Counted from the stretch's first letter, positions 12,001-50,898 are shown. The stretch: DNA of 64,000 bases from Candidatus Omnitrophota bacterium (GCA_028692655.1 JAQUWY010000005.1:3789-67788); one strand, 5' to 3'. Made by a program: numbers and translations. The notes: a model not told the origin generated them from the letters alone.

Positions 12001-15000
12001 TAGCCTAATGCCCAAGCCAAGCCTAAAAATCCTGCGCCAGCATAAACAGATTTAGGTATATGTATATATGTCCACTCTTCTTTGGGTTCAACATTTTCTT
12101 CAGTGCTAAGCGCCTCGGCCATTGAGGCTTTAGTCTTTTCATCTTGAGTCGACGGTTTAGCATCGGCAGACGGCTCTTCCTCAGCAGCCAGCGGTGCCTG
12201 AACAGAAGGCTCAACAGATGGTTCTTCTTTACCCTTCCCTTCCGGTTTCCCAACTTCTTCTCTGTCTTTTTCCTCATCCATCGTCCCTCGTCTTTCGTCC
12301 TTCGGCCTTGCTGTTTCTGTCTTCTCTTGTCCCTTTGTGCCAACGGGTTGAGAAGTTTGTTTTTTCATCTGCTCAACATATTCTCTAGTTCCAACAGTAT
12401 TGCGTATTTTCCTTTTAATTAACCCATATCCAAGAAAACTTAGGAGCAAAATCAAAATGGCATAAAAAGCGTTGTCGGAAATTTTCCATTCATTTCCATC
12501 TTCCAATGCGGATTTGGAATCTGGAGTACCTTCTGGAGCTGTTTTCGATTCCTCAGTCAAAGGCCCTGCAACCGGCACCTCTTTGATGGGTTTCTCTTTG
12601 GTAGATGGCTCTTTCTCAGCAACCGGAGCTTGCTTGGCTGGTTTCTCTTCAGCTGGCGCTTTCTCCATGGTAGGCTTCTCCTCAACAGGAGGAATTACTG
12701 CGGGTTTCTCTTTAGCAGGCGGCGTGGGTTTCTTAACTTCAGGTTTAGACTCAATCTTTTCCAGCCCCTCCGGTCGTTTTTCTTCCTCTGGGGTTATTTC
12801 TGGCTCAACTGGCTCTGGCACTGGTATCACTTCTGGTGTTGGTTCTGCCTTAATTATTTCTGCGGCGGCCTTTTCTTGAGAAACTTCTACTAATACTGTT
12901 TGTTGGCGCCAGCGGTATCCTCCAAATATCAATCTGCGTATCGGCCCGCGGCGGCGCTCACAAACCCACCTATTTTCATATCTATATGACTGAGTATCTA
13001 CCTGCTGGCTTTGAGTGTGTTTGATTGGATCGAAAGTTTGATCAGCATAGCCATTAGAGTATGCTATTGGTTGAGCATAGGCCTGATACACCTGACAGCA
13101 ACAAGTCCTCCGCGGCCCAAAGCGCCTGAATAACCCGCGAGCTTCGGCATTTGTCGGTGCTATTACAGTCAAGCTTGTAATAAAAATCCCTAAACCTACT
13201 ATAATTTTACGTAACCACGATGCCTGTCGCAATCTCTGCAGAAGTCTTGTTCTTGCGGTTTGTGATTTTAGGACCTCAACTTTATTATCAGTTGCAAAAG
13301 AGGCCCCCTTGGGGGTTGGGGAGGCATGGGAGCCTCTCGCAACTTCATTATTATTAATTTTTATAGGATTTTGCTCATGAGTTTTGTCAGGATTAAGCAC
13401 CGCCCAGATTTCGTGGGCAAGGTCGCGGAAAGATACTTTGCTTTGAGAAAGGATTATGTGATTGGTTTTATTTCTATAGTAATTTGCAATTCCTAAATTC
13501 CAGGCCGGAGGCGCTCGAATTACTTTGATGTTTCCCAAAATTAAACTTATGAATAATCTTAAGGAATCTGCTACCCCCAAATATCTCAACGCCGGTAAAG
13601 CCATTACTATTGATGAAAGCTTTCTTTCTCTTGGAAAATTTTCTAAACCTATAGTTTGAACCTTTCTATTTATTTCTTCTCTAGAAGTCCCTTGGCTTGA
13701 AGCATCAAGCGGAAAAGATTCCGCTATTAAAAGCTCTGCCGCTTGCTTAAATTCTTTCACAAAAAATTCAATGTCTCTGCGAAAAGAACCGTTAGCTGCT
13801 GCAGGCACACTGGACAACATATTCTCAAAAATATCCCAATTGACAACTGTTCCTGATTCCTTAAGCAGGCCAATGTATGGCTTAAAAAGAAAACCCACTA
13901 ATTCAGAAATACTAGTTTCTCTATGGCTTGAGCCGTCATCTACTAAAACGAATTGGCCGGAATTTTCTTCTATCCTTAAATTACCGGCATTATAATCCGT
14001 TGGGGATTTACCTTCTAACAAAACATAGATAAGCCCTGCTGTAAAAAGAGCTTTTTGAGCATATTCCCTTTTCTTTTCCTTGTTTGTTTCAACCAAAATT
14101 AATAAATCAAAATCCTCTCCTTCTATATATTCCTCTGACATCATATGAATAATTATTTTCTCTTCCTCAAAAAGGCCAAGCGGTACCGTTACTTTAAGCA
14201 ATGAACCAACCCTTGGAACTGCTCGAACACTATCAGGAACACCGAACTCGCTTTTTCTTTGGTGAATCCTACTCATTCCTTCAAATTCCGGCCCTAATGT
14301 ATCTGTTAAGATCTTAGGAACTTTTAGTATAAATTCATAAGCTTTCCCGTGCACACCAGTTTTTTCCGAAAACATTGCCACTCTTACGCCATACACAAGC
14401 CGGGTTGTACCGTTAAACCCGCCTTCTACATTAAACAACGTTATTCTTTCAACATTCTCTATATTTATAACATCACCATGAATATCCCGGATGGAGTCTT
14501 CAATAAAATCGCCAATAGAATTCAAGTTAGAAGGCATCCTTAACCAATTTGCGATAAACTTAACTCTGCTGATATAGTGGTCACTAAGCAACTCTTGGAT
14601 AAATGCTTTTACTACAGGGTTGCTTCTCTGTCTAAGCTCTACCTGTAGAGCATCCACTTGCTCATGGTTTAAGCCGCCTAAAGCAGCAATAATTTCATGC
14701 TCTATCTCATCAAAGGAAGCTCTTTCCCGCAGATATACTATATTAAGAAGGTTGAATGAAGGTTCATCAAACCCTGGCGGCCCGCGACGAATAATGATAT
14801 CATCTAAAAGCTTAGCTTTATCTAAAGAAAGATTTTCCTGCAAGAATATAATTTTGTTTTGTACATTCCTAGAGAACTCATCGTCTATCGCATCATAAGG
14901 CTGCCAGCCTCCTAATCTTTGGCCAAGTGAAAGCCTGGCTTGTATAATTGTTAAATCTGCGTTATCAGAAGCATGATCATGCGGAAAAGATTTAATTCCT

Positions 15001-18000
15001 TTATGGATACTGGCAACAGGCAAAACAAAAGTAAAAGTCGTTCCGGGTGTGGTACGGACTCCTGAACTTATCATTTTCAGCGTCTGCATCATAGCCGGAA
15101 GCGCTAATACGGCTTCTTTGACTTCTTTTATCTGTTCGATATCGCTGAATTGGTGGGTTAGAGCGGCATACGCTACTCTTTCACCCCAGACATAACTCCC
15201 TGTATTCTGAGTTACATTGTATAATAACCGATGATTTGCCCCTAACACATCCAGTATATATCCCTGTACAACATTTACTGCCTTCCCAATGGCGCTTTTA
15301 TCGCCTTGGATTCCTTCTGCCGGATTTCGCGTAAAACGTTCTCTCATTAATTTTTCTAAAACACCTAAAATAATAACCATATCGATGGCTTCATAATAAT
15401 AGTCTTCAGCAGTATATCCAATAACACCAGGCTGATGATAAGGATCTCCCAAGGCTGCTCTTGATACACTGTCTATACGGTTAGCCCATCTTTTTGTTTC
15501 TTCTTCTAAAGTTACATACAATTCTCCTATATATTTACGCAAAACATACCCAACCTCAGGCTCACCAAGCATTGGCAATTCTTCAATTATGCCTTCAGTG
15601 AGCGAATCTATTTCAATCATTACTTCGGGCACCCGATAACTTTCAGCTAAACCAAGCCCCCTTGATTCACCTTTGCCTGAAATTCCCAAAACGAGCATTG
15701 CCTGGCGCCCGTCATACCCCGCCGGGATTAAAAGCTTCGCGGGTAAACCTTTTAAGTTGTCGGTGATAGCAATTCTAAGTTTTCCATTTCTGTCTATAGA
15801 CATACTGGCTTTGATTACAAGTTCATTAAGCTGTTTATTAGCTTCAGCCTCATCATAAGCGTTTCTTAAAACATTGGAAACAGCGTTCTCCAAAGCTATT
15901 GGATCAACTCGAATTAAATAATCTTCATTCAGTTTTTTATGGACTGCCAAATTAGCAGGACGCCCTATACGCGCCATGACCCAAGCGTTTTTGATAATTC
16001 TAATTACTTCTCTTATATTGACAAGCTGCGTTGTATCCTGGCCGGTAAAATGCCCATATCTATTATTCAAAATTCTTAAAACATCTTCAAAACCTTCCAG
16101 GGTTTCTTGGTACAAAACTTTAAATTGCCGGTTTGCCGTTAACCTCTTTGCTAATTCAGAAAATTTATTCTTCGCTTGAGTGATCGCTTTTATTATCCTG
16201 TTAAACTCTTCTTTCCATTCATCAACCTGAACTCTGCTTACAGGCTCACCCGGTATTATCGCCTCTTTAATTTGATTATGCAGTATTCTTAAAGCTCCTC
16301 GGCCGGCATATCCATTTTTAGCAAGAACGTTCTTTATCCGCTTTAATTCCGGTAATAAATCCCTAAGCTTGGTACGCCTGCCTAACTCTTCTATGCTATC
16401 AGTAATTACTCCAATCTTTTCGGCATTAAACAGCGCTATTACAATTTCGGTTGCCGCGCTATGTTCAAGGCTTCTTATAGCATAAGCGATTCTTTCCGCT
16501 TCTTTATCTGTAACCTTATCGCCGTCGGCCGCTGTATCTTTAACCTGCCCGCCTAATCGCTCAAGGAGCTCGCGGACAGAACTTTTATAACCGGTTATCC
16601 AACGCGCGGCCAACACATATAACCCAGAAGAACTTAGCCAGTCTTGCAATTCTTTAACTTGGCTATGCTCTAAACCGCCTATAAAAGCCAAAAGCTCGTG
16701 GCGAATAATCCATTCTTTTGTTTTTAAAAGCCACTGGTCCCTTAATTTTTGCTGGTAATACCACTTGGTATTATTAAACAAATTGGAATCAAAATACAAA
16801 GCGGTTGGATTTCCATAATTGTCAATACGCATGCAAGCGCCGCATTCAAGTCCGTCCACCTCAAATATCCAGCCCTCTCTTAACAATTGCGATAACTCCT
16901 CTTTCTTCTTCTCTGCAAGCGCTATTGCCTTAGCCATTTCTGGCGTAATATTCCCCACTGGCGTACCAATTTTGAGAACTAATCCTATTAATTCATCTAA
17001 TAAAGCATCGTAATTGCCTATTAATATTTCTGCTTGAGAACTGCCAAAGCGAATCTTTCGTGGCCCTTTATATTTGTTCAATAATGCTTCTATTTCTTCT
17101 TTTGCTCTCCCGTCAGCTGAAGAATCTTTGGCTGACTGTGTTAAACCAGCCTGCTTAAATAATATTCTCCTGGTAAAATCAAGCAACATTGTTAAAACAG
17201 GTATAATAAACCACAGCGGATTAAGTAAAAGGCTATTGGCCATCATCCAAATAATAATAACTGCCGCAGATATAGCTATTGATAAAGAATGGTTATTATT
17301 TTTTTCTACATTCGGATAGCTCAAAGGAGAAGCGTAAGGATTTATTTCTTCCGGTTGTTTTTCCTCCCTTCCTTCTTGTCCTCTCTTATTTACCTGTGCC
17401 CGCAAAATCCTATATGCCAAATAGCCTAAGCCTAAAACCACCACAGCAGCTATTATATAAGATAAGGCGGTTACCAAAGCCCCAGCAGATGCTCCAGTCA
17501 TACCCGCCTCTCCGGCAAAAGCAGTATTAGCTGCACTAACAACACCTAAGCCAAAAAAGACAGATGCTGTTCGTCCCAGAACACTTTCCACAACGGGGCC
17601 TGCTGTCTTCAGAGATTCATTTAATTCCACCTGACTAATTTTAGGTATCCGGTCTAAATCCCTACGGTTTTTTATGCTTCTTTTTATAAGTTCTCTGGCA
17701 GCATAGTCCGGCTGGCCGCTAACAAAAGGCAGTATCCCTTCAAACCCTTGACGGATAGGAACAAGATTCCAGTTATCCGGCTGTGTTAAGGCAACAACAG
17801 CAGCCAGCTCCTCAATGGTTAAAACTTCAACTATTCCTTCGCTAATACGCCCGCGCTTTTCTTCTATAGCCTTAATTTCGGCCATAGCTTTTGACTTATC
17901 ATCATTGGCTTCATCTGTAAATATTCTTTTAAATAATTCTTCCCTTTGCTTTTCTTCTTCGGCACCGGCCTGTAGCTTTCCTATTATTACTATGGCTTCG

Positions 18001-21000
18001 GCTATTTTTTTTATTTCTTCTAACAACTTTGTACTTTCTGATTTTATCCGCAATACCTCTCTTTTTCTATTGTTAAACGCAGCCGAAAGCCTTGGGTTAA
18101 GATTCAAATCTATATTATTGGAAATATTACTTAATATTTCTTCCGCATCAGAAATCTGCTCAATCACATCTTGCAGCATGCCTTGTAGAAGCTCTAAATA
18201 CTCCTTTGCATCATTTATATAACCTTTAGGTTTTGTTTTTCCAAATTCTCTTAGTAACTTACCCATTTCTCTCTTTGCAATCTCGGTTTGGCCCTCAACA
18301 TTGCCAAGAACACTATTAACCATATTTACCAATGCTTGAAAATCTTTCTCAGCCCGTTTTCTTTTATCTATTTGATCAATTCCTTCTTGTTTCTTCCTAA
18401 TGGACGCAATTACTCTTTTCTGCCCTTCATCGCTCAGACTTTCTGCCTTATGCATTATCTCAAATAATAAACGCTGCGCGGAAGCCTCAGCCGCGTTAAC
18501 AGCCTCAACTTCTTTTATAAGATTATTTACCGCTTCTTCTTCGCGGTCATTTACGTTTCCTTCAGCCTCAAAATTATCTCCTGAACCTGGCCGGCTTGCG
18601 TCAAGTTGTCTTGCTGCTATTTTTCTTCTTATATCCTCGCGTTTTCTTATAGCTTCAGCTAATTCTCCCCTGGCTTTTAGCAGGCTTCTTTCTCTTTCTT
18701 CCTGCAATTCTTTATACCCTTCTAATCTTTCATACTCCATCTCTCTGCTCTTTACTTCTAATATGAGCAAACGCGTTTTTACTCTGCTTATTTCTTTTTC
18801 AGCCGCAAAAACCTCCTCTTTTATGCTGTTTTCTTCCCGAAGTTTTTTTAGTTCCTTCTCGGCCTCCCGTAATCCGATCGTTTCTTTTGTAAACTTTCCA
18901 TCTAACTGAATTTTTTGAGGCATTTTGTTAGGCTCTAAATTTGCAAGTGCTATTGCATACCGGTTTATTATTTCTTCTAATTCGGCAATTCTTTTTGCGT
19001 TCTGGCTTTTTGCTTTTTCAATTCTACTCAGTAACTCTTTCTTAAAAGTTTTCTGTTTATTCACAATTTCAGCAATTTGTGTAAGAGTAGTTATTTGCAA
19101 TAAAGAAATTTCCCTTTCGATTTTCTCGATAAACTCTGGATTGCGTGCCCTTGCATTTTCTAATCGTTTACGCGCGCTAATTCTTGTACGGTTTTTAACT
19201 TCTAAAGCGTCCTTGCCTCTATATTTCAAAGCTTCTTTAATCCTGCCAAGGCCTTTACGTAATCTTCTTATCTGATGCCGCAATTCCCAAATTGTCTGAT
19301 TTATTTTATCCTTTTCCTCAATAAGTTCGGACAAAGTGCTTTCTTTATTTGGCTCAGATGCCGGATTCAAAGCAACAATATCTTTTTCCAACTTTGATAT
19401 CCTGGCTTCACTTTCCTTAAGCTCTTTGCGCATACTAGCCAATTTTTCCTTAACCTTCATTAACTCCCTAGCTAACTGTGTTTCTTTATAGTTTACGTTC
19501 TGCGCTTGCTCTGCGTTCTCTATATCCCCATATACTCTTTCTAATTCTTCTTCTAAATCTTTGATTAACTTTTCAAGACGCGCTTTCTCTTCATTTTCAG
19601 GCTTTAGCTTATCTTTTAACTTAGCAATTATCTCTTCAGGCGTTTCGTTTGATGGCTTTGCCGGAAGAAATGCTTCTTCTTTAGCTTTATCAGCTTTTTC
19701 AGGTTTTTTAGTTGGCTCGTTATCGTCTGATTTTTCTTCCGGCGGCGCTTGCGGTTTTTTAGGCTGTTTGGGGCTTTCTTTTGAAGCTTTAAAATCCCTA
19801 TTTCTTAAATAACTCCTTAACCAGGTTGCAGCAAGACCGAGAATGAATCCGGTAACAAACCCGCCAAAAAATGCAACAACATTAACTGTAGTAATATAAG
19901 CTGTTATACCGCCTACAATACCGGAAAAAGATGCCATAGGTGTGGTTGAATTTGAAGAATTTCTATTTTGACGTGATTTTTTTACTCTTAAGCCGGTAAA
20001 CATACCAGCCAATAGCCCAAGGATTGTGCCGATAATAAATGCAATCCATGGGTAATTTTTACCGGCAAGTTCTCGTTCAGCCTGTTTAGCTTTGATTAAA
20101 TTTTCTGCGGTTTCTTTTGTCTTCTCTGCCTTTATCTTTAGCTCATCTACAGCATCGGCAAAATTTCTTGCCGCCTCAGCGGTTTCTCTTGCCTGTCTGG
20201 CCATTTCTTCTGTGGCGCTCTTAATTTTCTGCCATTTATTTAAATCAGCTATTGCATCAGTAAGGTCTTGATTATATCTTTCTAAATCAGATTTTGCTTT
20301 CTCAATCTGGGCCTTTAACCCAGCAGCCCGTTTTGCCTTAACATTCTTATAGTTAGGATTATTAATTACCTGTTTTTTGCCTTGTCCTGAGCAATTGCAG
20401 GAGTCGCAAGGAACTGCGTTAATGGTTATTGATTTTATATTTTCCGGTAAAAACCTTAACCGAGCTTTTAATCTCTGTGATACCCGGCCAGGATGTGGAC
20501 TTTCGTAACGACGGATATTTGCCTTTACATTATCAATACTTATAGTGACCCTCAAGTAGCCTTGCCCCTCTCTTTTATCTTTCTCATTTATCGGCCTATT
20601 TAATTCTATTCTTGCTTCATTTTCTAACATTCCACTATAATCCTGCACTAAAATATCATAATATCCCGGGTTACCACCCTTAATAATCCTATCCACTTCA
20701 TTATCTGCACTGTCATAAGGATTGGGTGATTTTATAATAGTGTTGTACGACGGCAAAGCATAGAGGGTGTTGTCGTCCTTACCCGCTTGAGTAAGATTAC
20801 TCTTAAGCGTTTGTAATAGTGCTTCTGTTTTGCCTATTGATTCTTTTACTCTATCAACTCTGGCCTGAATAGCATCAACCTTAGCCTGTACCGCTTCAAC
20901 TAATTTATCAAACTTATCAGCAACTTTATCAAGCCTGTCAGCAACCATGCGCGCTTCAGTTGCTGTTACACCCAATTTTTTAATAATATCTTCTATCGCC

Positions 21001-24000
21001 TTAATTTTTGCGCGGACATCATCCTCGGCATTTTGCGAATCAACTGATGGCGTTGCCATTAACTTATCAACCGCTGCTTGCAATTGGTTTATTGCTTCAT
21101 TAGCTTTTTCAGATAACTTAACTGCTTCGTCTGCATTTACCTCTGCTTCTTTGGCTAAATTCTCGGCTTCAATTAGCGATACTTTAGTTTGTTCTACCTT
21201 TTCTTTGCCGGGAACTTCCCTTTCTTGTTGCTGGGCAAGCCTTTCATTGAGGCTAGTTTTATCTTTAACTAATTGGGCTTTTTTGCGGCTTAATTCTGCT
21301 ATTTGCGTTTTTATTTTTCTTATTTGTGATTGAATATGTTCAACTTTTTTAGTACCGCCTACGGATTCGGCCTGTACATATTCATAACGCTGCGTTGCAG
21401 CATTTCTTAATCCGGGAAAGATTGCTCCTTTTCCTCGTGAAGCCCTTCCCCTCGACCATCTAGCAAGCAAACCGTTGCGGACATATCCACCGTCAATAAC
21501 AACCTCTTTTTCTTCCGTCTCTTGAGCTTTTCTTAAACTTTCCTGTAACCTATCTAATCTTCCCTGCAGTTCCGATATTTTCGCAATTATCTCTTGTTGG
21601 CCTTCGTCCAAATCGCCCAATTTTTCTTTCAGTACTTCTGTTCCATTTTGCGCATCCTTCAAACTATTGTTTAAAAGCTCTTCTTCTCCCTTTAATTCCT
21701 CTACCCTATTCTTAAATTTTTCTGCTTCTGTAGCATAGATTTCGGCTTTCGTTTCCACATTATCAACTGCTTCATCCAAACCTTGTAAAGCTCTTTTTAG
21801 GTCTTCTTCTGCGGTTTTTACATCTATTATCGGTTTATTATCACTTTTAGACACTGATGGCTGGTGACGGGTAGCTGGTGTGAGTTTTTTATCTTCGGAA
21901 ATCTGCTTGTCCCGTGACAAAGTTTTTGCGGGTTGTGCGCTTTTTTCAGCAGCTGGTAATTTTTTCGCTGGCGGACCTATCGCAGGCGGTAACTTAATCT
22001 GAGGAGAAATGATAGGCCCTTGCTGAGTAGGTAATTCCAACGATTTTGATGATGTCGGCATAGCCGGCGCTATTGGCCCTTTATCTATCCCTGGCATTAC
22101 CGGTTTTACTTTTAACTCCGTAGATGTTTGAGCTGGTTTCGTTGGCTCTGCTTCAGGTTGTACTGGTTTAGTTTTAGCTACAGGTGGTTTTGGCTGAGTA
22201 GTTTTCGGGGCGGCCGGCCTCGCTACCGATGCTGGGACTGCGGCTTTCGCTTCTTTAGTTGCAGCTTTTCTAGCAGCCAATCTTTCTTCTTTGGCTTCTT
22301 TAGCCAATCTTGCCTTCTCAACGAGAGCTTCTTGGGCAGCTTTTTCTGCGTCCACTCTTTCTTGTTGGAGCCTTGCTGCTTCAGCTTGTCTGGCTGCTTC
22401 TTCTACGCGGGCTTTTGCGACAGCTTTCATTGCTTCGGCTTGAACAGCCTTTGCAGTAGAAACCGCCTCTTCTAAAGAATCGAATGAATGCTTGCCGGTT
22501 TTGTATTCATAGCCTATATAGATACTTATACTCGGGCCGGCACTAGTGGCTCTTGTTTCAGCCATAACTCTGGCCTGTTCTCTTTCTGCCTGACCCATAT
22601 TTAAGAACTCTTTGCCGCCGACACTGTAAGTAGCTTTTCTTTCTACTTTGATTCCTAAACCAGGATGTTGTGTGTCCACCCTTTCTTGCTCTTTCCGTAA
22701 AGCATCTGCGATTTTCTGTCTTTTCTGCTCAATTCTCTCTAGGGCTTTTTTGATTGTCTCTTTTATTTTATCTTTTACTTGGTGGCTAACTCTTTCATCG
22801 GTTTTGAAACTATTAATAATTTGTACTGCGCCATCAAAATTTTCATGGTCAACCGCCAAACTCAACGCTTCTTCCCAGCGGCTTTGCAATTGTTCCTGAG
22901 CTTTCCGGTCTGTTTCTGCTTGCTTTTCAGCATCTATTTTGCCTCTTAGCTTTAAGCCTCTGGCCGTTGAACCTTCTTTAGATTTAACCGGCTGTGTATT
23001 TTCACCAACCTCTAGTTTAACTGCCACCTCAAAGCTTTTGTTACGAGTTTTTTCTGGTTTGCTAACCATTACTTTTTTATTCCTAAGTTTAATTAAAGAA
23101 TTACCAATAGTCCCGGCTATTTGATCTTTATTTCTTTCTCCTACCATCGTAAGCTCAGGTTTGTTTTGGCCATCTACAACAACTGCAATATAAGGAATAC
23201 TTTCAACTCCATAACGCTGAATGACAGAAAGGTTACTTTCTTTATCTGCATCAACCCTAACCAAAAACACTTCACCCGGATAATCAGCAACAACTGCTTC
23301 AAGTTCAGGAGCAGTTTCTCTGCAAGGACCACACCACGATGCCCAAAAGTCTATTAAAATTACTCTTCCCTTTCCTTCTGCTCTGAGAAATTTATTCAGG
23401 GTAGTTAAACCTTCAGCATTAACAATATTGCTGCTTACCCCATCTATTCCGGAAATATCGTCAGCGGCTTGGCCAATATTAGTCAAAACCGGCGAAGCAA
23501 GTATCAGCGCTCCAAACAAACCAAGCACAACAGCTTTAAACACCGGACGGGCGGCAAGCCTTCCAAATACAGTAGAAGGGGTATATTTTTCTTCTTTTTC
23601 TTCGCTCAAGCCAAAATCCGAATGAATTTTCTCTTTCCCTCCTTCAGTAGTTGATGACAATACCCTCTTAGACCATGCCATATATTCAAAATCATCCGGT
23701 TGTTGTTCTTCTTCAACCTGTCCTGTGGCTTCCCCTTTTATTGTTTCTCGAATAGTGCTCCAATTTAGGTCAGATTTCCTTCTTTCTACCTCGGGCTTCT
23801 GCGCTTTAACAGCTTTGCTTATCAGCCAAATGGCCGTAACGGCCGCTAAAATAATTAAGGCCAATTTTGCCCACAAAGGCATTGTGGCCACAGCTACCGG
23901 TTTTGCCGCCCCCATTAAAAATGGTGTGATCCCTGTTAACATCAACGCCGAAATTTTGCTATGGACTGCTTGTCCTGAGCGAAGTCGAAGGATGGACTGT

Positions 24001-27000
24001 GAACTATCGACTGCCTTGGCGCTGCCGCGGCCAACCGCCATAGCCTGATCTACTGCAGATTGATGGGCATAGACAGGAATCCCCTCTAATCTGCGTAAAT
24101 CTGCGTTTCTTTCAATCTGCGCTAATCTGCGTCCCTCAGCTGAGATTAATATTTCTGACGTGATAGACTGGAGCGGCTGAGTAACACGCCTCAATTGACC
24201 TTTTGATATTTCCGGCCTCAGCTTCATCAAGGAGCTTGAAGTTCTCTCTAATCTGCTGTTTAACATCACCATAGGAGTTGATAAGGTAGTTTTCAATCCT
24301 GCCCCTACTGTCTCTTGCTGAGGCAAAAATCGTGCCGTCAGTTGTTCCAACCACGAAATGAGTGAAGATAAGTTTAGTAACCATGACAAACCTCCTTTTG
24401 ATTCGTATAGTGTATGTCGTATTTCGTATGTCGTTAAAGTTGCACTGGAGGCCCCCGTAGGGGTTTGGGGGGAGGCGTGGGAGCCTCCTGCAACTTTATT
24501 TCGTATGTCGTATATCGTATATCGTATATCGTTAGGTAAGGAAAGGATAGAAGAAGCCGCTTTACTAAGAGAGCTTTCTCCGCCTACACGCCGAGATTCC
24601 GCCACGGAAGAGCTTCGACGGGCAAGCATAGATAGACCCTTAGCAAGCGGCATTATACTTATTCGTGGAAATTTGCGTTTTATGTCTGCAGGTAAGGAAG
24701 ATACAAAAGACAAGATTTTTGTAAACTTGTAGCTTATAACATCTAACTTGTGACTTTTTACAGGCGGAGCAAGGCTGTTGGCATTATAATAAGAAGACGA
24801 ATCTCTTGCTTTTGCAAGATTAGTTAATATATTAAAAAGCTTTACTACTCTCTTCGGCAGAATTATCTTTTTGCTTGCCGAAGCGCCGCCATTACCTGAA
24901 CCTTTGCCGTTTCCAGAACCTTTTCCGCTGCCCGGAGCTTTTGAGTTACCGGACATACCACTAGCGCTTCCGGACGCAGTCTTCGCACTTCTAAAACCGG
25001 CATTTTCGCCTGATTTTCCTTGTAAAGAGCCTATTTTTCTTCTAATTTGACCAATTTTACGGCCAATAGTTACAAAATCAGCTTTGATTTTACCCTCTGT
25101 TGCCTTGATCCATCGCTGCGCAAAGGTAATCGCGCGACGGACCAACCCGACACCCGGCGAACCTGGGCCATTTATATAATCAAAACCTGACCGCTTGTTG
25201 GCTTCTGTTGACGATAAGTCAAAGGTTGTGCTCCAAATAGCTTTGCCTACCGGAGCCGCATAAGCATCGGCAACGGTAAACATTCCTTTTATGCCTTCAT
25301 AAAACGTATTTGCTGCTCCTAATATTAATATTGTCATTGGCTTTGGCCCGCCTAAAGGAGCGCTTGGCGGTAACGGCAATGTTATGGGCCTGGTTAAAGG
25401 CGGCAAAGCAAATGGCATACCTGTATCATATATTATGGGTTTTTCCGGGCCCAAAGGCGTTGCTGAAGTAACTATCGAAGAGCCTACCGGGCTTTGATCA
25501 GCTTGATTTAGGCCTAAAGCCTCATCTACGTTTATGCCTAAATCCCGGGCTTTTTTCGCCGCCTCATCCATATTATGTTTTGCCGTACTTAAAGACAAGG
25601 CTCCTTTTTCGCCTTTTTGGGAAGCTATATAATCAGAATAGGCATTTTTTAGTGACTGTCTAGCTGACATTCGCTCAGCACTCTCTGCCATATTATGAAC
25701 TGTACCGGCGGCATCGGAGCTAGCAACATCAACCGCACCGGTTCTGGATAAAGCCTCAGTTAAACCGTGCTCTAATTCTGCTAAACCGGCATCTTGAGCT
25801 AAATAGACAGTGTAAGAACCGTCACCGTTGGCCAGAGTAATTTCTTTATCGCCGCGAGAAGTAAGTTGTTTAGCGCTTAATCTCACAACCTTTACCGGAG
25901 CGATTGCTTCAAACTTATTAGCCCTCTCCTGTATATATATAGGTAAGGAGATTTCTTCAGATTCTGCAATCACCTGTTTGGCTTCATCAATATCTTTTTG
26001 GGCCATTCTTCCTTTTTGCCCGGCACCAGCGGCAAATGGATCATCGTCGGACAAAGTTGTTGTATGAGCGCCTTTCTTTGGGCCAGTTTCAGGTAATCTT
26101 TCTGACGGCTGAAAAGCCGCTCTTTCTGCTAAAACTCTCTCCACCAAAGCTTCAAAAGAATCCGGGGGCACTTCTCCATAAAGTTTATCGTCTAAATCGG
26201 TTACTTTAGATAGGAGCTCTCTGAACTTATCTAAAATTCGACCTTCAACCTCCACGCCTTTGTTTTTAGCTTCACCGAAGACAGACTTTAATTCCTTATG
26301 TAAATCTAAATCGGGGTAACCTGCTGAATCTTGCCGTTGACGCTCAATATCATCTAATACTTCCTCAATATATTCAGTCCAATAGACGCTCTCATCTCTT
26401 TCACTAGCTGTCAAATTGCCCTCTTGTGCTTTTTTATTTCTTATCTGCTCAGCAACCTCAGAAAATTCTTCAGCATCACTGTCAATAAACTCATCCGGCG
26501 TAAACTCACCTAAAATAGCTTCACCCCGGCGTAACAATTTGCCTAAACCGACAGCTTTGGCGATGAAATCTTTTTCTGGCATATCCTGGATTTGAAGAAC
26601 TTGCGGCAAGTCTTCTTCTTCGCCCAGAACTTCGAATTCGCGTAGAATTTCTGTCCTGGCCGCGGCGCTGTCCCTAAATGTATCATTTCCTTCTATAGCT
26701 ATGCCCAGCCAGCGCATAAGTGAATTTAATTCGGCTAAATTACTCCGGTACGCGTCATCAGATAAACTCTGGCGAATATCCGTTATTCTTTTCTCGGATT
26801 GTTTAATAGCTTTTTGTATATCCGAAATTTTTTGTTTCAGCTCTTTTTCTCTTGTAACCGCCTCAAGTTGCTCATCAGCTGCTTCTGAACCATAGAATGA
26901 ATCTATAGCGACAGGTTCCATCGCTTTTTCTGCCAGTTGCCTTTCTATAGCTTCCTGCTCTTTCTCTAACCGTTTTTTTGCATCAGCCCAAGCTCTGCTT

Positions 27001-30000
27001 TCTAATCCTTCTTCTCTCAAGCTCTGCCTTGTGCTGGTGTAAATACTTAATTCTGCATCCAGCCAATCTTTATCTTGCAAGGACATGTTAGCCTTTAGCG
27101 CCTTCACAACTTCTTCTATCCGCCAATCTAACCAAGCTTCTACACTAAAGACTTTAATGTCCTTTGCTTTTTTATCTTCGCCTCTGTACAATTTCAATCC
27201 TGCATCTGTATCTCCAATAAATTTAACATCCATAGCTCGTTGGAAATTGGCCAATTCTTTCTTAATATCTTCAAGGCTTTTATCTTTCCATTGATTAAGA
27301 AATTCTATGTCCTCGCCGGCTTTCTGAGTTTCATCATCTAAAGCGCTTCTAACCGCCGGTAGATAAATATCCCTTATAAAACTATCTTCTTCCTCGTGGG
27401 CTTTTCCTATAAGCTTTTCTATATTCTCTTGGGCTTCTGCTAAAGCTTCTTCTCTTTCTTTCAGCAGTTCAGCCACGCTATCAGAAACAGCCTGTTTATG
27501 TTCATCGTTGTCGCTGCGATTAGGGTTATAATCCGTCAGCTTCTTAACCTTTTGATTACGTAATTTGCCTGAAAGAGTGTCTTTTGATTTTTGCTTGACT
27601 TCCTCTAAGGAAAAATGCAGTAATCCTTTCGGTAAACTTAACCGCCCATCATCCTTAAACTCCCGCTTATAAGCACCTTCTAATTTTCTTACCCAATTAA
27701 TCTGTTCGCTTAGTCCACTCTCATTGACAGAAGGATTAATAAGCTCAAGAATCCGCATTACTTCATCTTTCTTTTCTCCACCCAGTAGAGCCTCTAATTC
27801 GTCTATGGTTTCTATATCCATTGACGGCATTTCCGAAACGCCTTTCCCGTAATTATCTTTAGCATAGGCCATCTTGATTTCATTTATGGCTTCGCCATTA
27901 GCACCGGCACTGCGATAACCGTTAAGACTTGAATTAACATACATCAGGCTTTCTAAAAAAGTTTCCGAGTCAGTTCCATTTAATATAACATCCGAATAGG
28001 CACGTAATTCTTTTTGCTTGCTGCTTACCTGTAAATCCTTATCTAAAGCATGTCTTGTCTCATGGCGCAATACTGACATTGTTAATAATTTTTCTACCTC
28101 TTTTTGTGTAACCCTACCTTCACCTCCATTGAGCTTGCGCCATTGTCCGGTATATTCGCTATTTTTTTCTTCATTCAAAAATGCGGCAATATTGCCAGCT
28201 GTTTCCTTTATCATCTCAATAAAGATGCTTATTTCATTATTGTGCGGATTATATTCGCCAAGCTTATCAGTATTGCCATTCTTCACTTCAACTTGGACTT
28301 TCCTTGAACCGTCAACATCAAGCATAGAAGTTTGTTCTGCCCCGCTTAAAACCCTCTCTGCTAACTCCTCTAACTTATCATCTACACCTGCTAACTCCTC
28401 CAATTCTCCGGTATCAGCCAAGCGAGCTAACCGAACGGCAGACCGCATACCTTCAATTAAATTTTCTACGCCTGTGGAACCTAAATTTGCGGTATCCATA
28501 TGCAATAAGCTGTTAACATCAGTGCCGGAGAGCTGGCTGAAAAGTCCTGCCTTAGCTTTAGCCGCCTGAAAATCGCTTCGTACACTGCCGGCACCATTTA
28601 TTCCTGCAAGGCGCGTGAGTTTTCTTTCGGATAAACTGTTAAAAGCTCCCAATAAAAGCAAGCCGCCTCCGCTGTTATAGCCCATAGAAACTATATTGCT
28701 AATAGAAAATGCACGTAGGCCTTTAAAAAATCCTCTTCCGAGCAAAGGTGTTGGATGTGCAGTAGCCCAATTTATACGTTTCTGTAATTTGTTTATACGC
28801 TCTTCTATTTGTTTCACATTGCTGAGGGCATCTTCATATTTATTATTTTCTAAAGAAGCCATTATTATCCTGTTTAATAAATATTTTAAGTAGTCTATAT
28901 TTTGCTTATCTTCGGTAACAGACATCCACCTTTTAATTCTTAAAACGTTCCAACCGCGTATTTTTTTATCTGCCGACAACCCATATCTTTCCTGCATTTT
29001 GGCGGCTGCAGCCAAGCCTCTGTTAATAGAAAACCTGTCGGCATTGCCTGAGCCGCTTAACCTTATTAATGATGTCCGTAGGGCTTCTCCTTGTGAATCG
29101 ATTTCGTTTTCATCCAAAGGCCCCCTGCGGTTTCTCCATATAGAGATACCTGCTACTAATGCCAATCCGCCAAATGCCAACAGCGTAGGAATGAGATAAT
29201 TTTCTCCTGAGTCTGGCTGGTTAGGCATATCTTTGAAAGCCTGGTTTAAAGCCAATGGCAACAATGAAAGAGCATAGCTAGCTGATGTTGTTGAAGGATA
29301 GAGCGAAGATTTATACACTTTTTGCTGCAGCCCTTTTACATATTTATCAAGCTGGCTGACACTCATATCGGAAACTTTTTTGATTGCCCTACGAGAAAGG
29401 ATAAGACGATTCTGGCGGTCATTGATAAATCTTGCAACAAGGTTATCGTCCTTATCTGATTCGGCCTGCCGTCCAAGAGCCCAGTTTAAGCCTTCAGCTA
29501 AAGCCTGCTTCACTTTTCCGTCACGAAACACCATGCCAGAGACGAATTCCGTTGGATAACTCATAAACACATCTCCGACCAAACCGTCGGCCTGCAACCT
29601 TTTTTGTGTTCCCTGGTCTAAAACAGCAAACCCTCCGGATATAGCTTCAAGGCTGCCAAAAGAAGAAACAGCGGGATTCATTAAAGCTGCGGCTAAATCA
29701 GCCGTATCACGACGCTGTTGTATAGTCATTGTTTTATTCTGGAAAGCTTCGTTTATGATATCTATTGCCTGCTGGGCATATTGGGGAGCGGATAGGCCTT
29801 TAGCTAATTTGCTATTTGATCCGGTTATAGCGGTTTGAATATCTGTTAATACCTGGTTTGCTGATGCATTAGGAAAGTATGCTTTTACAGTTTGAAATAA
29901 TTCAGGTGAACCGCGTGTACCATTAGAAAGCATAACGGTATCCATCTGCCTGTATATTTCGGCTTTATCTTCAAAAGACAATTTATCACTCCCGGAAGCT

Positions 30001-33000
30001 TTTCGCGCGGCTTCGACTGTTTCTAAAGCCTTATCCACGGTCTTTGAAACCCTGGCACTTCTTGTAATATCTCCTTGAACCTGGACAGTGCTTGAAAGCA
30101 CTGTTTTAGAAAAGCCATCAAATATCCTGGCAACATCAGCGATACTGTAAGCGTCTGAAATAGAATTTTTACCGGTTGTGCCATTTTCATACACCGTGCC
30201 GCTAACAACCTTAGCCGCTTCCGCTTTTAACCAGTTTGCCTGCGCCCGGCTGATAGCCGATACTTTACCGCCGGCTTCTTCTATGCGCCCTAATATGTGC
30301 TGTGAATACTCAGCGATATCCTTACTTACTTTCCTGATTCTGTCTTCCCCTTTTACATTATAAGGAGATGCTTCTAGATCAGCTATATACTTATGTTGTA
30401 TAACTTCATTGAATATATTTTCTATGTATTGCCGTTCAACAGGATTGGCGGCCCGGCCAAGCATTTCTTTCAATGGCTCAATGAGCTGGCGCGAGTAACC
30501 TGCCTCTCGGGCCTGATGCAAAAGAGCCTGAGAAGTCTTAATAACTTCTAATCTCTGAGAATTTCTTAACAACTCTTTTGTCTTTTCCCTGGAGCCTCCC
30601 TGTTTACCTGCGGTAGCTTGATGTATTCTCAGTAAATATTGTCCGGAGCTGGTAATATCCTTTATTTCTTTCAAAGTCCCTCTATCAGTATTATTGATAT
30701 TCAACAAGTTATCTCGATCATAAAAAACTACTCTCTGGCCTGACTTAACTTTATCGCGGTCGTTTCTGTTGATTGCCTGAAGAAGCTGTGACTCTGGGAA
30801 TTTTTCACCGTCGGCAATAATTAAATCACGGCCAACCCTGACACCATCTTTAACTTTATCTTCAAAACTATATCCTGTGGCAACTCGAATATTAGCTAAA
30901 ACAAACTTACCGGCATTTTCTGCCAAAGAAAGGCTAACTATATCATCAGGTTTTTTACTGCCATATACTACCTCAATTTCCTTATCTTTAAATCTTTCTC
31001 TTATCGCCAGTTCCAACTTAGTCATAAGCTTTGGGTCTTCCACTATAAGCAGCAGCCCATTTTCCTTATTGGGCCTTGCTTCTAGTCTTTTCATAATCTC
31101 ACCAACTCTGTCTTTTGAGCCAACCCTGACCACCTGTGCATCAAACTTTGTCTCGCTAATACGCTCAACCGAGCGCCCTAAATTCATTCTTAATAACATC
31201 TCTATGCCTTCGGGCGTACCGGTAAAGCCTAAAGTCGAAGCCGTAGGCTTAAACTTCAGCATTTCCGATAAAGTAGCTTGGTTCAACGTCCGGGTGGTAG
31301 ATAAATCCTTGATTTTTAAGCCCTCTTTTTCTCCTAAATAAGCTAAATAAGCCGGGTCGCTTAATACACGGTCTGCCTGCTCAACTCCGCCTTCCCAAGG
31401 AATAATATCCGTTTTGCCTTTTCGCTGCCCAACACCATAATCTACGCCAAAGCGGCTGCGCTCAGCACGTATATAAGCGTGAGCTAAATACTCATTTACC
31501 CCTTCTGCCTTCATTGCTTTTTTTGCCGCTTTGTTAACCACAAATTCACCGCTTTGTTTATCATAATAAAGGCCTGGCTTACTTTGAGACTTAAGAATCT
31601 CCTTCTTATCGGTGTTATTTTCATTTTTGAATAAAACATCCCGCACAAACTTACCGGCTCTATCCAGCTCAGCTTGTATAGCTTGTGTTCCCGCGCCTTT
31701 TTTATCTAAAATCCCCGCCAACTGTTCAATAACAGATACCTCGCCGCCGCCGACGATGTAACTGCTCCTATCGGAAAGCGGAACGTGAATTTCATCTACG
31801 CGTATGCTATCTTGGTTGTAAACGCGCTGTATGAAATCCCGATCAGCGCTGTTACGCAGATGGCCCAGAGTCGGGTGGTCAAAAACAACAATCAACGAAT
31901 TGTTTCTCAAGGCGTGTTTTACTTTTTGAGAGTTACTGCTCCAGTTACGACCATCAACAAGCTTTAATCCGAATTTTTCTAGTAATTGGTTTATTACAGG
32001 GTCCTTCATCATCTTATCGACCTCACCCGCACGCACAACCCAAAGCTGATTAGCTTCGGGAAACATCGCCTTTCTCATAATCATTTCAACTGCTCCGCCT
32101 ACAGTCTTACCGCCGCCGGCTTCTAACCCAACATTTTTATCTCCCAACAAGGAAAGAGCCATGCGGACTTGTTCTAAACCTTTCTTTCCGAATTCTTGCA
32201 ATTTAGCTGCTCCTAACTCTTTACCTATAATAGCATAAGCTTCATCCATAATCAGGCGTAAAGCTTTTCCTACCTGTTCTCCGGTAACAGGTTTGCCGTT
32301 TTCGAATATATTTTCGATACCTTTTTCTCTACCACCGTTTTTAAATCCCTTAACAACTTCACCTAAAAATGCACTATGGTCGGTGCCTTTCTTAAGTTCT
32401 AACTCTAGAGTGCCGTTTCTAACATTTAACAACAAGTTTTTCGCATCTTTACTTTCTAACGTAAAAACTTCTTTTAAAACACTACGGCGTTGAAAATAGT
32501 CACCTACCCCTTTATCTTCCTTGAATAGTTTTACTGGATTGCCTTGACTATCCTTAAGTTCAATTACGCCTTCTTTATCATACTGGTTTTTATACTCTTC
32601 CCACTTTTTCCATCCGTCTTTATTGAATTTGCCGTCTTTACCAAATATTTCGCCATCAAGATTACGCAGGCCTATTTGTATGCGTATATCGCTGGTACGC
32701 ACCCCGATCCTGCGGCCGTCTTTTAATCTAACTTCAATGAGCCCTTTATCTCTAACTGTATAGTGCCTTAAAAGCTCACCCTGGTCAGCCGCTTTATTCA
32801 AAATATAGTTCATAGCTGTTTCTCTACTGGGTATACCAAGCAAAGGGTTGTCACTTATATATTCAATTGCCCCAATCTTTTCAGTCCTAGCTAATTCCCT
32901 GTCAATAATTCTTTGCCGAGGTGATATTGCTCTGGCTTTCGCTTTATTTTCACTCTTTTCTATATCGAATTTGTATCTTTTATTGACAAAATCTTCGGCA

Positions 33001-42731: not shown

Positions 42732-42828
42732 TTTTAAATGTATATATAAAATAAAGGAAGAAAAAATTCCCCCTTACCCCCATCAATAAGACTCGCATTT
42801 TTTCAAGTTATGAGCGAAGAAAAAATGC

Positions 42829-43158
42829 TTAGTCGAATTGACCCCGCTCTTTTGGCGGAAGTCCTATAGTTAAACTGTGCTCCAAACGCCGTTTTAAATG
42901 ACCAATCGCGCTTCCATGATGTTTTAACTTATTTTCACGTTTGACCGCATCGCGTTTATCTAAGTAAGCCTCGTAATAAATCAATGTAAGCGGCCGGCGA
43001 TCCTTAGTAGAAGCAACTTTCCCTTTATTATGGGCTTTTATACGTGTTTCAATACTTTCGGTATCTCCCACATATATTTTTTTGTCTGTCTGGCTTTTAA
43101 GTATATACAAATAATGCATTGTATCTGCTCCGCCAAAAGGGCGGGGTTTTTCGGCCAT
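42829..43158 (-). CDS. GIY-YIG nuclease-superfamily small protein (109 aa).
   Basis: MAEKPRPFGGADTMHYLYILKSQTDKKIYVGDTESIETRIKAHNKGK...RENKLKH carries the GIY ... YIG ... R ... E ... N pattern. Confidence 0.8.
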   Translation of the reverse strand: MAEKPRPFGGADTMHYLYILKSQTDKKIYVGDTESIETRIKAHNKGKVASTKDRRPLTLIYYEAYLDKRDAVKRENKLKHHGSAIGHLKRRLEHSLTIGLPPKERGQFD

Positions 43159-43159
43159 A

Positions 43160-43215
43160 CGGCCTCAAAAAAAAAGAGCCGGATTACCATTTAGAATTTC
43201 GGTAACCCGGCCATC
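43160..43215 (-). terminator. Hairpin + U9 tract immediately upstream of the SD/ATG of the GIY-YIG gene.
   Basis: Minus strand: GGCCGGGTTACC-gaaattctaaat-GGTAATCCGGCTC TTTTTTTTT GAGGCCGT ATG. Confidence 0.45.
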
Positions 43216-43254
43216 CTTTTCTTGTTTAACTTATACGCAAATCTTCACAAATTA

Positions 43255-48105: not shown

Positions 48106-48107
48106 CT

Positions 48108-48330: not shown

Positions 48331-48367
48331 CTCCCCAACGATAATCACAATTTATCAAATTATAAAA

Positions 48368-50826: not shown

Positions 50827-50828
50827 CA

Positions 50829-50876: not shown

Positions 50877-50898
50877 AATAGATTATGATTTTTCTCAA

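What the first reader, a model, noticed from the sequence alone, without database searches (positions are those of the whole stretch)
23680..24560. Fossil intergenic spacer translated in frame in the middle of the giant ORF
The 880-bp segment contains sequences otherwise found only in true intergenic regions of this window. These are the 33-nt CGCAGAT-repeat core (24099-24131, identical to 48186-48218 and 50406-50438) and ggactgcttgtcctgag..tcgaaggatggact (23961-23999, matching 50981-51045). It also has a 59-bp palindrome and a heptamer microsatellite. Downstream follows Met-Ala-Trp..TM helix..thioredoxin, which looks like the N-terminus of a separate membrane-anchored protein. Upstream the sequence ends with a TM helix. 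Yet about 290 consecutive codons are open, which is implausible by chance in AT-rich DNA. This suggests two giant genes fused, or are conditionally fused, through a now-coding spacer.
Basis: partly seen in the sequence, partly recalled or inferred. Interest (0 to 1): 0.75.

Follow-up and report, generated by a model that had tools for sequence, protein, structure and literature searches.

The report
Small gene nested in giant-gene spacer
In the middle of a giant (more than 14,000 codon) gene of an uncultured Omnitrophota bacterium lies an ~800-base stretch that looks like DNA from between genes and holds its own small gene in another reading frame, yet evolution keeps the giant reading frame open through it, so the giant gene seems to be read as one piece.

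Summary
The minus-strand frame is open for 14,257 codons (window 1-42773). It runs through a stretch made of a 60-nt palindrome flanked by heptamer repeats, a CGCAGAT x4 box (33 nt identical to two riboswitch-like leaders) and a fragment of another intergenic repeat. Chance does not explain the open frame (0 of 20,000 shuffles).

New here:
- The stretch contains an 82-codon ORF (24384-24136) in another frame, with a perfect Shine-Dalgarno site.
- One related contig was found (L006, MAG WCY34, about 88% nt identity). There the giant frame is also open, but the filler around the small ORF is replaced by unrelated DNA of different length, each change a multiple of 3.
- The small ORF is kept in L006 with its own SD, ATG and stop. 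dN/dS is 0.16 in its frame and 1.1 in the giant frame.

So about 270 codons (24758-23951) are a translated spacer selected only to stay open, and they host a living nested gene.

- no relative with a stop codon was found;
- ATG 23681 is not a gene start;
- the spacer is dynamic, not fossil.

The origin (fusion, insertion or overprinting) stays open. The function of the small protein is unknown.

The parts
1..42773 (-). Giant open reading frame, at least 14,257 codons. It runs off the window start. The first in-frame ATG is at 42731, followed by an N-terminal membrane helix.
   Evidence: Stop-free stretch. Codon-usage score is positive along almost its whole length. Membrane helices are scattered along it. 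The only Pfam hits above the curated cut-off are Thioredoxin (23366-23106), Thioredoxin_2 on the same stretch, and HATPase_c (15905-15636).
23951..24758 (-). Translated spacer, about 269 codons. The giant frame is open, but it has weak codon usage, dN/dS about 1, and indels and replacements relative to the orthologue.
   Evidence: Codon-usage score is about -2 to 6 (40-codon windows) over 24773-24263, below 2 in most windows, against a mean of 10.3 (sd 4.5). dN/dS is 0.76-1.23. Conservation ends at NSLAPPV (24779-24759) and resumes at 23950. Simulated neutral divergence of 17.5% leaves the frame open in only 0.1% of trials.
24498..24532 (-). Upstream heptamer array: ACGATAT x3, ACGACAT, ACGAAAT.
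   Evidence: In L006 all three ACGATAT units read ACGAAAT, a concerted change, and the unit count is the same.
24437..24496 (-). 60-nt G+C-rich palindrome (hairpin of 20 pairs). It is translated in the giant frame as KVAGGSHASPQTPTGASSATL.
   Evidence: Fold -34 kcal/mol, z = -4.8. Nearly identical in L006 at 9838-9897. A second copy at 13345-13290 has one compensatory pair.
24401..24434 (-). Downstream heptamer array: ACGACAT, ACGAAAT, ACGACAT, ACACTAT, ACGAAT. It forms a direct repeat (83%) with the upstream array.
   Evidence: In L006 this stretch is replaced by 217 nt of unrelated DNA.
24391..24396 (-). Shine-Dalgarno site AGGAGG, 6 nt before ATG 24384.
   Evidence: L006 has GGAGG 7 nt before its own ATG in otherwise unrelated sequence. 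Neighbouring genes use GGGGAGG.
24136..24384 (-). Nested small gene of 82 codons plus TGA, in the +2 frame of the giant ORF.
   Evidence: It lies in the longest +2-frame open run of the whole giant ORF (119 codons); only one +2 run reaches 83 codons. Its codon-usage score is above the 99th percentile for that frame. It is conserved in L006 (93 aa, same C-terminus). 22 of 40 substitutions fall at its third codon positions. dN/dS is 0.16, against 1.11 in the giant frame.
24089..24131 (-). CGCAGAT x4 box with spacing 10, 16, 10. The same box sits in the leaders at 48176-48218 and 50396-50438.
   Evidence: Absent from L006, which has ACGTCAC and AAGTCAC heptamers at that place.
23963..23998 (-). 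Fragment of a second repeat (AGTCCATCCTTCGA..CTCAGGACAAGCAGTCC). A longer copy lies at 51045-50981, just after the stop of gene 51062..51922.
   Evidence: Absent from L006.
23787..23950 (-). First conserved stretch after the spacer: hydrophobic membrane segments (ALMLTGITPFLMGAAKP..MPLWAKLALIILAAVTAIWLISKAV).
   Evidence: Hydrophobicity peak at 23864. 93% nt identity to L006 and dN/dS 0.25-0.31.
13290..13345 (-). Second copy of the palindrome, in the same giant ORF and the same codon phase. It is followed by a stretch with non-coding-like codon usage and a signal-anchor helix.

Best explanation
The segment is a real, maintained 'translated spacer' inside one continuous giant gene of an Omnitrophota bacterium.

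Shown:
- Over about 270 codons (24758-23951) the giant frame carries no amino-acid constraint, yet it is kept free of stops and in phase in two lineages, even though the DNA there is being replaced.
- Inside the spacer, in another frame, lies a complete 82-codon gene with its own ribosome-binding site, start and stop. It is under purifying selection.

Inferred:
- Ribosomes that translate the giant gene read straight through the spacer. They make an unconstrained linker peptide that joins the upstream ~6,000-residue part to the downstream membrane-anchored thioredoxin part, which has no start signal of its own.
- The small gene is co-transcribed and is translated by internal initiation at its Shine-Dalgarno site, like comS inside srfAB.
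- The rest of the spacer (palindrome, heptamer boxes, repeat fragments) is filler of the kind that also sits in this genome's leaders and intergenic DNA. It is tolerated wherever it does not break the frame.

The function of the small protein is unknown.
For: Continuity is selected:
- No stop in 14,257 codons, and 0 of 20,000 shuffles of the spacer are open.
- The orthologous contig L006 (MFA7676793.1, another assembly from another sample) is also open throughout.
- The two non-homologous filler blocks differ in length by 150 and 72 nt, both multiples of 3. In both genomes they have 0 stops in the giant frame; the three longer blocks carry 3-6 stops in each other frame, and the short 67-nt window block has at most one.
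- Neutral simulation predicts about 6 new stops, with 0.1% of trials still open.

No amino-acid constraint in the giant frame: dN/dS is 0.76-1.23 across 24905-24092, against 0.26 overall.

Nested gene:
- SD plus ATG are present in both genomes, within unrelated upstream sequence, and the C-terminus and stop position are the same.
- About 80% identity, mostly conservative changes, against 64% in the giant frame.
- 22 of 40 substitutions fall at its third codon positions (p = 0.004). dN/dS is 0.16 (synonymous excess p = 5e-6), against 1.11 in the giant frame.
- It is the only sustained departure from the normal substitution pattern in the 10.7 kb shared with L006.

No start signal precedes any in-frame ATG downstream of the spacer.
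Against: - Only one comparator genome was found, and the dN/dS values rest on 76 codons and a method not designed for overlapping frames.
- There is no expression, proteomic or ribosome-profiling evidence for either frame.
- The small protein has no detectable relatives outside these two genomes.
- Its single-sequence AlphaFold confidence (pLDDT 69) is no better than that of the giant-frame peptide from the same DNA (65.6).
- Its codon-usage score (0.065 per codon) is well below the giant's average (0.257).
- A stable hairpin and terminator-like context inside a translated region is unexpected.
Confidence: 0.72

Rival explanations
1. Origin by gene fusion. Two neighbouring large genes with a small gene and a terminator hairpin between them became one ORF when the upstream stop was lost. 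The former intergenic region is now read in a frame that happens to overlap the small gene.
For: - Intergenic-like layout: hairpin, then SD-ATG small gene, then repeats, then a part that starts with membrane helices.
- No amino-acid constraint on the giant frame there.
- A conserved double stop (TAGTAA in the window, TAGTAG in L006) in another frame just before the heptamer array.
Against: - No relative with separate genes was found; L006 is fused too.
- The downstream part has no relic start signal.
- About 200 stop-free codons would have had to arise or be cleared.
- In a stand-alone homologue (L007/P0017) the pre-spacer module (..NSNALAPP) runs straight into membrane helices without any spacer.
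Confidence: 0.35
2. Origin by insertion. A pre-existing permissive linker of the giant gene was colonised by repeat or mobile DNA (palindromic element, heptamer boxes) and by a small gene cassette. Only insertions that kept the frame open survived, as with Rickettsia palindromic elements in coding genes.
For: - Filler blocks differ completely between the window and L006, so DNA is gained and lost here.
- The CGCAGAT box and the second repeat have copies elsewhere in the genome and are lineage-specific.
- The palindrome has a second in-phase copy in the same ORF.
- P0017 lacks the spacer.
Against: - No empty site was seen for the palindrome or the small gene, since both are present in L006.
- No transposase and no clear terminal repeats or target duplications; the 15-nt flanking repeat is part of the heptamer array.
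- Homology of the P0017 membrane helices to those after the spacer is not significant.
Confidence: 0.35
3. Overprinting. The small gene arose de novo in the alternative frame of an unconstrained linker.
For: - The host frame is unconstrained, which makes overprinting easy.
- The small protein has no homologues anywhere searched.
- Its codon-usage score is modest.
Against: - Strong purifying selection with conservative replacements at 20% divergence.
- Canonical SD in both lineages.
- Its frame scores above the 99th percentile for codon usage among +2-frame windows.
Confidence: 0.15
4. The two halves are not always joined. Copy-number slippage in the heptamer arrays (7 nt, so a frameshift), or termination or processing at the hairpin, conditionally uncouples the upstream and downstream parts, so the spacer is a switch.
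For: - Perfect ACGATAT x3 repeat, with a concerted change of all three units between lineages, which suggests slippage or conversion.
- A strong conserved hairpin directly after the array.
- Stops lie close by in both other frames.
Against: - Only three perfect units, which is short for efficient phase variation.
- Both genomes have the same unit count.
- No canonical slippery site lies before the hairpin (read by eye).
- The frame that links the hairpin to the small ORF is open in the window but full of stops in L006, so a frameshift fusion is not conserved.
Confidence: 0.1
5. Artefact or ordinary linker: a mis-assembly, or a normal coding linker whose similarity to intergenic repeats is accidental.
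For: The sequence comes from a metagenome assembly, and repeats can cause mis-joins.
Against: - An independent assembly from another sample has the same layout and an open frame.
- A mis-join would not be stop-free for about 270 codons.
- dN/dS about 1, together with a nested ORF at dN/dS 0.16, is not an ordinary linker.
Confidence: 0.03

Closest known systems
comS nested in srfAB of Bacillus subtilis (and other same-strand nested small ORFs such as GndA in E. coli)
   Same: A small protein gene lies wholly inside a very large gene, on the same strand and in a different frame. It is co-transcribed and has its own initiation site (PMC12915044; PMC11230408).
   Different: In srfAB the host frame encodes a constrained enzyme domain. 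Here the host frame is unconstrained (dN/dS about 1) and seems to serve only to keep the giant ORF open. The nested gene is longer (82 codons, against 46 for comS by my recollection). Expression has not been shown.
Rickettsia palindromic elements (RPEs) and other MITEs inserted in frame in coding genes
   Same: A palindromic repeat is read through in frame as extra peptide. There are multiple copies, and the host protein tolerates them (PMC10969869).
   Different: Only two copies were seen in 64 kb, both in the same gene. No empty site is known. The element is 60 nt, flanked by heptamer arrays, and is only one component of a larger spacer.
Giant genes of Omnitrophota (archaeovorin-type giant proteins)
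   Same: Omnitrophota MAG. ORF of more than 14,000 codons with many membrane helices. It lies next to Tad/T2SS-F pilus genes and has few recognisable domains (bioRxiv 10.1101/2023.11.21.568195; 10.64898/2026.06.07.730766).
   Different: Term searches of those two papers ('stop codon', 'riboswitch' and 'thioredoxin' in both; 'intergenic' and 'fused' in the first; 'fusion' in the second) found no occurrences, so they appear not to describe internal spacers, nested genes or riboswitch control. No SecA-like domain was detected in the part of the gene held in the window.
Gene fusion by stop-codon loss (read-through of an intergenic spacer)
   Same: A non-coding-like stretch is read in frame between two modules, with no amino-acid constraint.
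   Different: The unfused state has not been observed. The spacer is not decaying: it is maintained, turns over, and holds a living gene.

Membership tests
Same-strand nested out-of-frame gene (comS/srfAB type) | A complete ORF with start and stop inside a longer ORF, on the same strand and in a different frame | tested here: met
   24384-24136 lies in the +2 frame of the giant ORF. The arrangement is the same in L006 at 10068-10349.
Same-strand nested out-of-frame gene (comS/srfAB type) | Own translation initiation signal | tested here: met
   AGGAGG 6 nt before the ATG in the window. GGAGG 7 nt before the ATG in L006, within unrelated flanking sequence.
Same-strand nested out-of-frame gene (comS/srfAB type) | Purifying selection on the nested frame | tested here: met
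   dN/dS 0.16, and 22 of 40 substitutions at its third codon positions. This rests on one pairwise comparison only.
Same-strand nested out-of-frame gene (comS/srfAB type) | The host frame encodes a constrained protein across the overlap | tested here: not met
   The giant frame has dN/dS 1.11 in the overlap and 0.8-1.2 around it.
Same-strand nested out-of-frame gene (comS/srfAB type) | Both products are expressed | not testable with these tools
   No proteomic or ribosome-profiling data could be reached.
In-frame palindromic repeat element (RPE / MITE-like) | A palindromic element repeated in the genome | tested here: met
   Two copies in the window (24496-24437 and 13345-13290; 81% over 63 nt) plus the orthologous copy in L006, with 0 expected by chance.
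In-frame palindromic repeat element (RPE / MITE-like) | Read through in frame without a stop | tested here: met
   Both copies are in the same phase of the giant ORF (GSHASP..GAS.AT).
In-frame palindromic repeat element (RPE / MITE-like) | Presence/absence polymorphism (an empty site in relatives), terminal repeats or a target duplication | tested here: inconclusive
   L006 has the element at the same site. The 15-nt flanking direct repeat ACGACATACGAAATA is part of the heptamer arrays.
Fused genes with a fossil intergenic spacer | Relatives in which a stop codon and a new start separate the two parts | tested here: not met
   The only orthologue found is open. The scans of the genome and metagenome collections found no other orthologue.
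Fused genes with a fossil intergenic spacer | A relic start signal at the head of the downstream part | tested here: not met
   No SD precedes ATG 23681 or any other in-frame ATG after the spacer. Conservation resumes at 23950.
Fused genes with a fossil intergenic spacer | The spacer has no amino-acid constraint | tested here: met
   dN/dS 0.76-1.23, with indels.
Intein or self-splicing intron (removed intervening sequence) | Hint/intein domain, or a group I/II intron RNA structure | tested here: not met
   The only Pfam match to the 293-aa in-frame translation is a weak CopD match far below its cut-off. No Rfam match in 23500-24800 apart from one chance-level snoRNA match (E = 3.2). An intron would also not need an open frame.
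c-di-GMP-I riboswitch (source of the CGCAGAT box) | An aptamer is present in the segment | tested here: not met
   No aptamer in 23500-24800. The other CGCAGAT boxes lie next to weak c-di-GMP-I-variant matches at 50477-50551 (E = 3e-4) and 48264-48331 (E = 0.23).

The most novel reading that the evidence does not exclude
The spacer is a functional junction rather than tolerated filler. The nested small protein would be a partner of the giant protein (for example an immunity or chaperone-like factor, made only when the giant gene is transcribed). The conserved hairpin with its heptanucleotide arrays would set or switch how often ribosomes carry on into the downstream ~8,000 codons. If so, giant Omnitrophota genes would be built and regulated as chains of modules joined by such junctions; a second palindrome junction lies at 13.3 kb.
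Probability: 0.12. Interest if true: 0.85.

Novelty: new variant of a known kind. Interest (0 to 1): 0.66.

Why it matters
It is debated whether the giant ORFs of Omnitrophota are truly single genes, and how they grew so long. This locus gives evolutionary evidence that ORF continuity is itself under selection: across a stretch with no amino-acid constraint and rapid DNA turnover, two lineages still have no stop and no phase change. That is what translation of the whole ORF as one unit predicts.

It also shows that such genes contain permissive junctions that take up intergenic-type DNA and can even hold a separately translated gene. Neither NCBI's annotation of the L006 contig nor the public protein collection lists the small ORF from either genome.

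Finally, it gives concrete targets for metaproteomics and for surveys of the new complete Omnitrophota genomes.

Tried and rejected
1. Word-indexed protein searches found nothing: 1433 aa and 393 aa across the segment, and the 82-aa ORF. For the long queries the 8000-candidate list was probably saturated by low-complexity words. The exhaustive search then found the orthologue.

2. The genome-contig scan found only unrelated thioredoxins. The first metagenome scan found nothing. The second, with the CGCAGAT 24-mer, found only the orthologue of the 50.4-kb leader (L003, 99% identical), not the spacer.

3. The small protein has no match in Pfam, NCBIfam, plasmids, phages or viral contigs.

5. The antisense ORF 24358..24732 (+) has the best codon score of all alternative-frame ORFs, but it is truncated at both ends in L006. 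Rejected as a gene.

6. Frameshift fusion of the upstream part to the small ORF. The linking frame is open in the window but has many stops in L006, and there is no slippery site. Rejected.

7. Internal start at ATG 23681. No SD, and it lies inside a conserved block. Rejected.

8. Homology between the membrane helices of P0017 and those after the spacer is not significant (1093 of 2000 shuffles score as well), so P0017 cannot settle fusion versus insertion.

9. Integron attC site. Read by eye, the stem base is GTTGC...GCAAC, not RYYYAAC...GTTRRRY. Not pursued.

10. The terminator scan does not call the palindrome a terminator on the coding strand.

Full report
**What is there**

The window comes from a Candidatus Omnitrophota MAG. 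Exact look-ups of neighbouring proteins give MDD3296145, MDD3296149, MDD3296153 and MDD3296165, locus tags PHU64_, on a 70.4-kb contig.

On the minus strand one frame has no stop codon from 42773 to the window start, which is 14,257 codons. Its neighbours are Tad/T2SS-F pilus genes. A c-di-GMP-I riboswitch lies upstream at 43391-43198. The ORF has scattered membrane helices. The only Pfam hits above the curated cut-off are Thioredoxin at 23366-23106, Thioredoxin_2 on the same stretch, and HATPase_c at 15905-15636. This fits the giant genes described for Omnitrophota (bioRxiv 10.1101/2023.11.21.568195 and 10.64898/2026.06.07.730766).

**Check of the observation**

All the listed features exist.
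- The CGCAGAT x4 box at 24131-24089 is 93% identical over 44 nt, and identical over 33 nt, to 48175-48218 and 50395-50438.
- The repeat at 23998-23963 shares collinear exact blocks of 16 and 14 nt with 51045-50981.
- A 60-nt palindrome at 24496-24437 folds at -34 kcal/mol, z = -4.8.
- It is flanked by heptamer arrays at 24532-24498 and 24434-24401.

The open frame is not chance. None of 20,000 dinucleotide shuffles of 24560-23950 is open, and the intergenic stop density in this window is 6.4% per codon.

Two corrections apply.
- The palindrome's only other copy in the window, at 13345-13290, is itself inside the giant ORF and in the same codon phase.
- The two other CGCAGAT boxes lie in 233-nt leaders that resemble c-di-GMP-I riboswitch variants (E = 3e-4 and 0.23, both below Rfam's thresholds).

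Just after the palindrome (on the minus strand) there is AGGAGG, then 6 nt, then ATG at 24384. This opens an 82-codon ORF that ends at TGA 24138-24136, in the +2 frame of the giant ORF.
- It lies in the longest +2-frame open run in the whole 42.7-kb ORF (119 codons; only one +2 run reaches 83 codons).
- Its codon-usage score is above the 99th percentile for that frame, while the giant frame's score drops there.

**Comparative evidence**

Word-indexed protein searches and the scans of the genome and metagenome collections found no relative of the spacer.

The exhaustive HMMER search found P0014, a 3591-aa partial protein with 81% identity. It is MFA7676793.1 of MAG WCY34. Its contig was fetched as L006 (10,773 bp, JGI 3300014204).

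DNA alignment of L006 to the window:
- L006 1068-9901 matches 33300-24434 at 88%.
- L006 10119-10347 matches 24366-24138 at 82.5% without gaps; this is the small ORF.
- L006 10463-10771 matches 23950-23642 at 93%.
- Between these blocks the DNA is unrelated: 217 nt in L006 against 67 nt in the window, and 115 nt against 187 nt. Both length differences (150 and 72 nt) are multiples of 3.

The CGCAGAT box and the second repeat are absent from L006, which has ACGTCAC and AAGTCAC heptamers instead. The giant frame is open throughout L006. The filler blocks have 0 stops in the giant frame in both genomes; the three longer blocks carry 3-6 stops in each other frame, and the short 67-nt window block has at most one.

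**Selection**

Across the 3,495 aligned codons, dN/dS in the giant frame is 0.26. From about 24905 to 24092 it is 0.76-1.23.

In the 229-nt gapless overlap, 22 of 40 substitutions fall on the third codon positions of the small ORF, which are the second positions of the giant frame (p = 0.004). dN/dS is 0.16 in the small frame (excess of synonymous changes p = 5e-6) and 1.11 in the giant frame.

The small proteins are about 80% identical with mostly conservative changes. The giant-frame peptides over the same DNA are 64% identical.

L006 keeps the small ORF with its own GGAGG and ATG in unrelated upstream sequence, and with the same C-terminal residues and stop position.

A scan of the whole shared 10.7 kb shows that this is the only sustained departure from the normal third-position pattern.

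A neutral simulation of the spacer at 17.5% divergence creates about 6 stops and leaves 0.1% of trials open.

**Interpretation**

Taken together, two things are under selection here:
- the continuity and phase of the giant frame, but not its amino-acid sequence;
- the protein encoded by the nested small ORF.

The simplest mechanism is as follows. Ribosomes read the giant ORF straight through the spacer, producing an unconstrained linker. This is also the only visible way to translate the downstream part, which has no Shine-Dalgarno site before any in-frame ATG. The small gene is translated by internal initiation, as comS is within srfAB (PMC12915044). The step from 'kept open' to 'translated through' is an inference, and no expression data were available.

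The ATG at 23681 is not a gene start. It lacks an SD and lies inside a block conserved from 23950 onwards.

**Origin**

Three origins remain possible.
- Fusion of two genes across a former intergenic region that held a small gene. The layout fits: hairpin, SD-ATG gene, repeats, then membrane helices. A double stop in another frame is also conserved just before the heptamer array.
- Insertion of repeat DNA and a small gene into a permissive linker. The filler clearly turns over and has copies elsewhere in the genome. A stand-alone 300-aa homologue in another metagenome (P0017/L007) joins the pre-spacer module (ending NSNALAPP) to membrane helices, and then to the module that follows the second palindrome in the window. 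However, homology of those helices to the ones after the spacer is not significant.
- De novo birth of the small gene in an unconstrained frame.

No genome with the unfused or empty state was found.

**Comparison with known systems**
- It works like a same-strand nested gene (comS/srfAB; GndA, PMC11230408). The difference is that the host frame is unconstrained here.
- The palindrome behaves like an RPE-type in-frame palindromic insertion (PMC10969869), but no empty site is known.
- It is not an intein, an intron or a riboswitch.
- Term searches of the two papers on giant Omnitrophota genes found no occurrence of stop codon, riboswitch or thioredoxin in either, nor of intergenic or fused in the first or fusion in the second.

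**Limits**
- There is one comparator and 76 overlapping codons.
- There is no expression evidence.
- The small protein has no other relatives.

**Verdict**

The best reading is a maintained, translated spacer that hosts a living nested gene inside a single giant gene. This is a new variant of known phenomena, and it is of real interest for how giant bacterial genes are built and read.

Noticed in passing
window 43198-43391 (-): A c-di-GMP-I riboswitch (Rfam 58 bits) lies upstream of the giant gene. It is 194 nt long because its second hairpin loop holds an insert of about 105 nt with CACGAAT heptamer repeats. It is followed by a terminator-like hairpin.
   Followed up: partly
window 48096-48328, 50316-50548, 60562-60672 (-): Three related leaders upstream of pilus-locus genes resemble c-di-GMP-I variants (E = 3e-4 and 0.23, below Rfam thresholds). 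They have the same 'GCAAAGCCACGGGACC ... GGUUGGCCGGG' layout, and in the first two the CGCAGAT box sits in the loop insert. This could be a divergent riboswitch class that controls the whole Tad and giant-gene locus. L003 (JGI Ga0172381_10335782) is a 99% identical copy of the 50.4-kb leader.
   Followed up: partly
window 42832-43119 (-): A 96-aa GIY-YIG domain gene (Pfam E = 1e-16) sits between the riboswitch/terminator and the start of the giant ORF.
   Followed up: partly
window 13345-12900 (-): A second palindrome copy lies inside the giant ORF. It is followed by about 330 nt whose codon-usage score is negative in all six frames although the giant frame is open (Cys/Arg/Gln/Tyr-rich peptide), and then by a signal-anchor helix (13214). 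This may be a second junction of the same kind. No comparator sequence was available.
   Followed up: partly
L007 310-1212 (P0017, JGI 3300009538): A stand-alone 300-aa membrane protein with its own SD combines homologues of giant residues 5889-6004 (just before the spacer) and 9813-9884 (just after the second palindrome). These two parts are 3,800 residues apart in the window's giant protein. This hints that the ~11-kb block between the two palindromes was added to a smaller ancestor.
   Followed up: partly
window 33400-33300 (-) / L006 949-1065: Another hypervariable stretch of the giant ORF: 53% amino-acid identity, dN/dS 0.69, and a 31-codon length difference between the two genomes.
   Followed up: no
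window 5965-6389 and 6520-6944: A 555-bp tandem duplication inside the giant ORF, with parts 97% identical.
   Followed up: no
window 50823-50878, 62490-62545, 62620-62667: Arrays of TAGAAAT-type heptamer repeats occur in true intergenic DNA in both orientations. Different heptamer units (CGCAGAT, CACGAAT, ACGATAT, TAGAAAT; ACGTCAC, AAGTCAC and AACCGCA in L006) recur in the non-coding or permissive sites of these genomes.
   Followed up: no
window 25175-24760 (-): Synonymous divergence to L006 is unusually low just upstream of the spacer (pS 0.05-0.09, against 0.27 on average). This suggests nucleotide-level constraint or recent recombination between the lineages.
   Followed up: no
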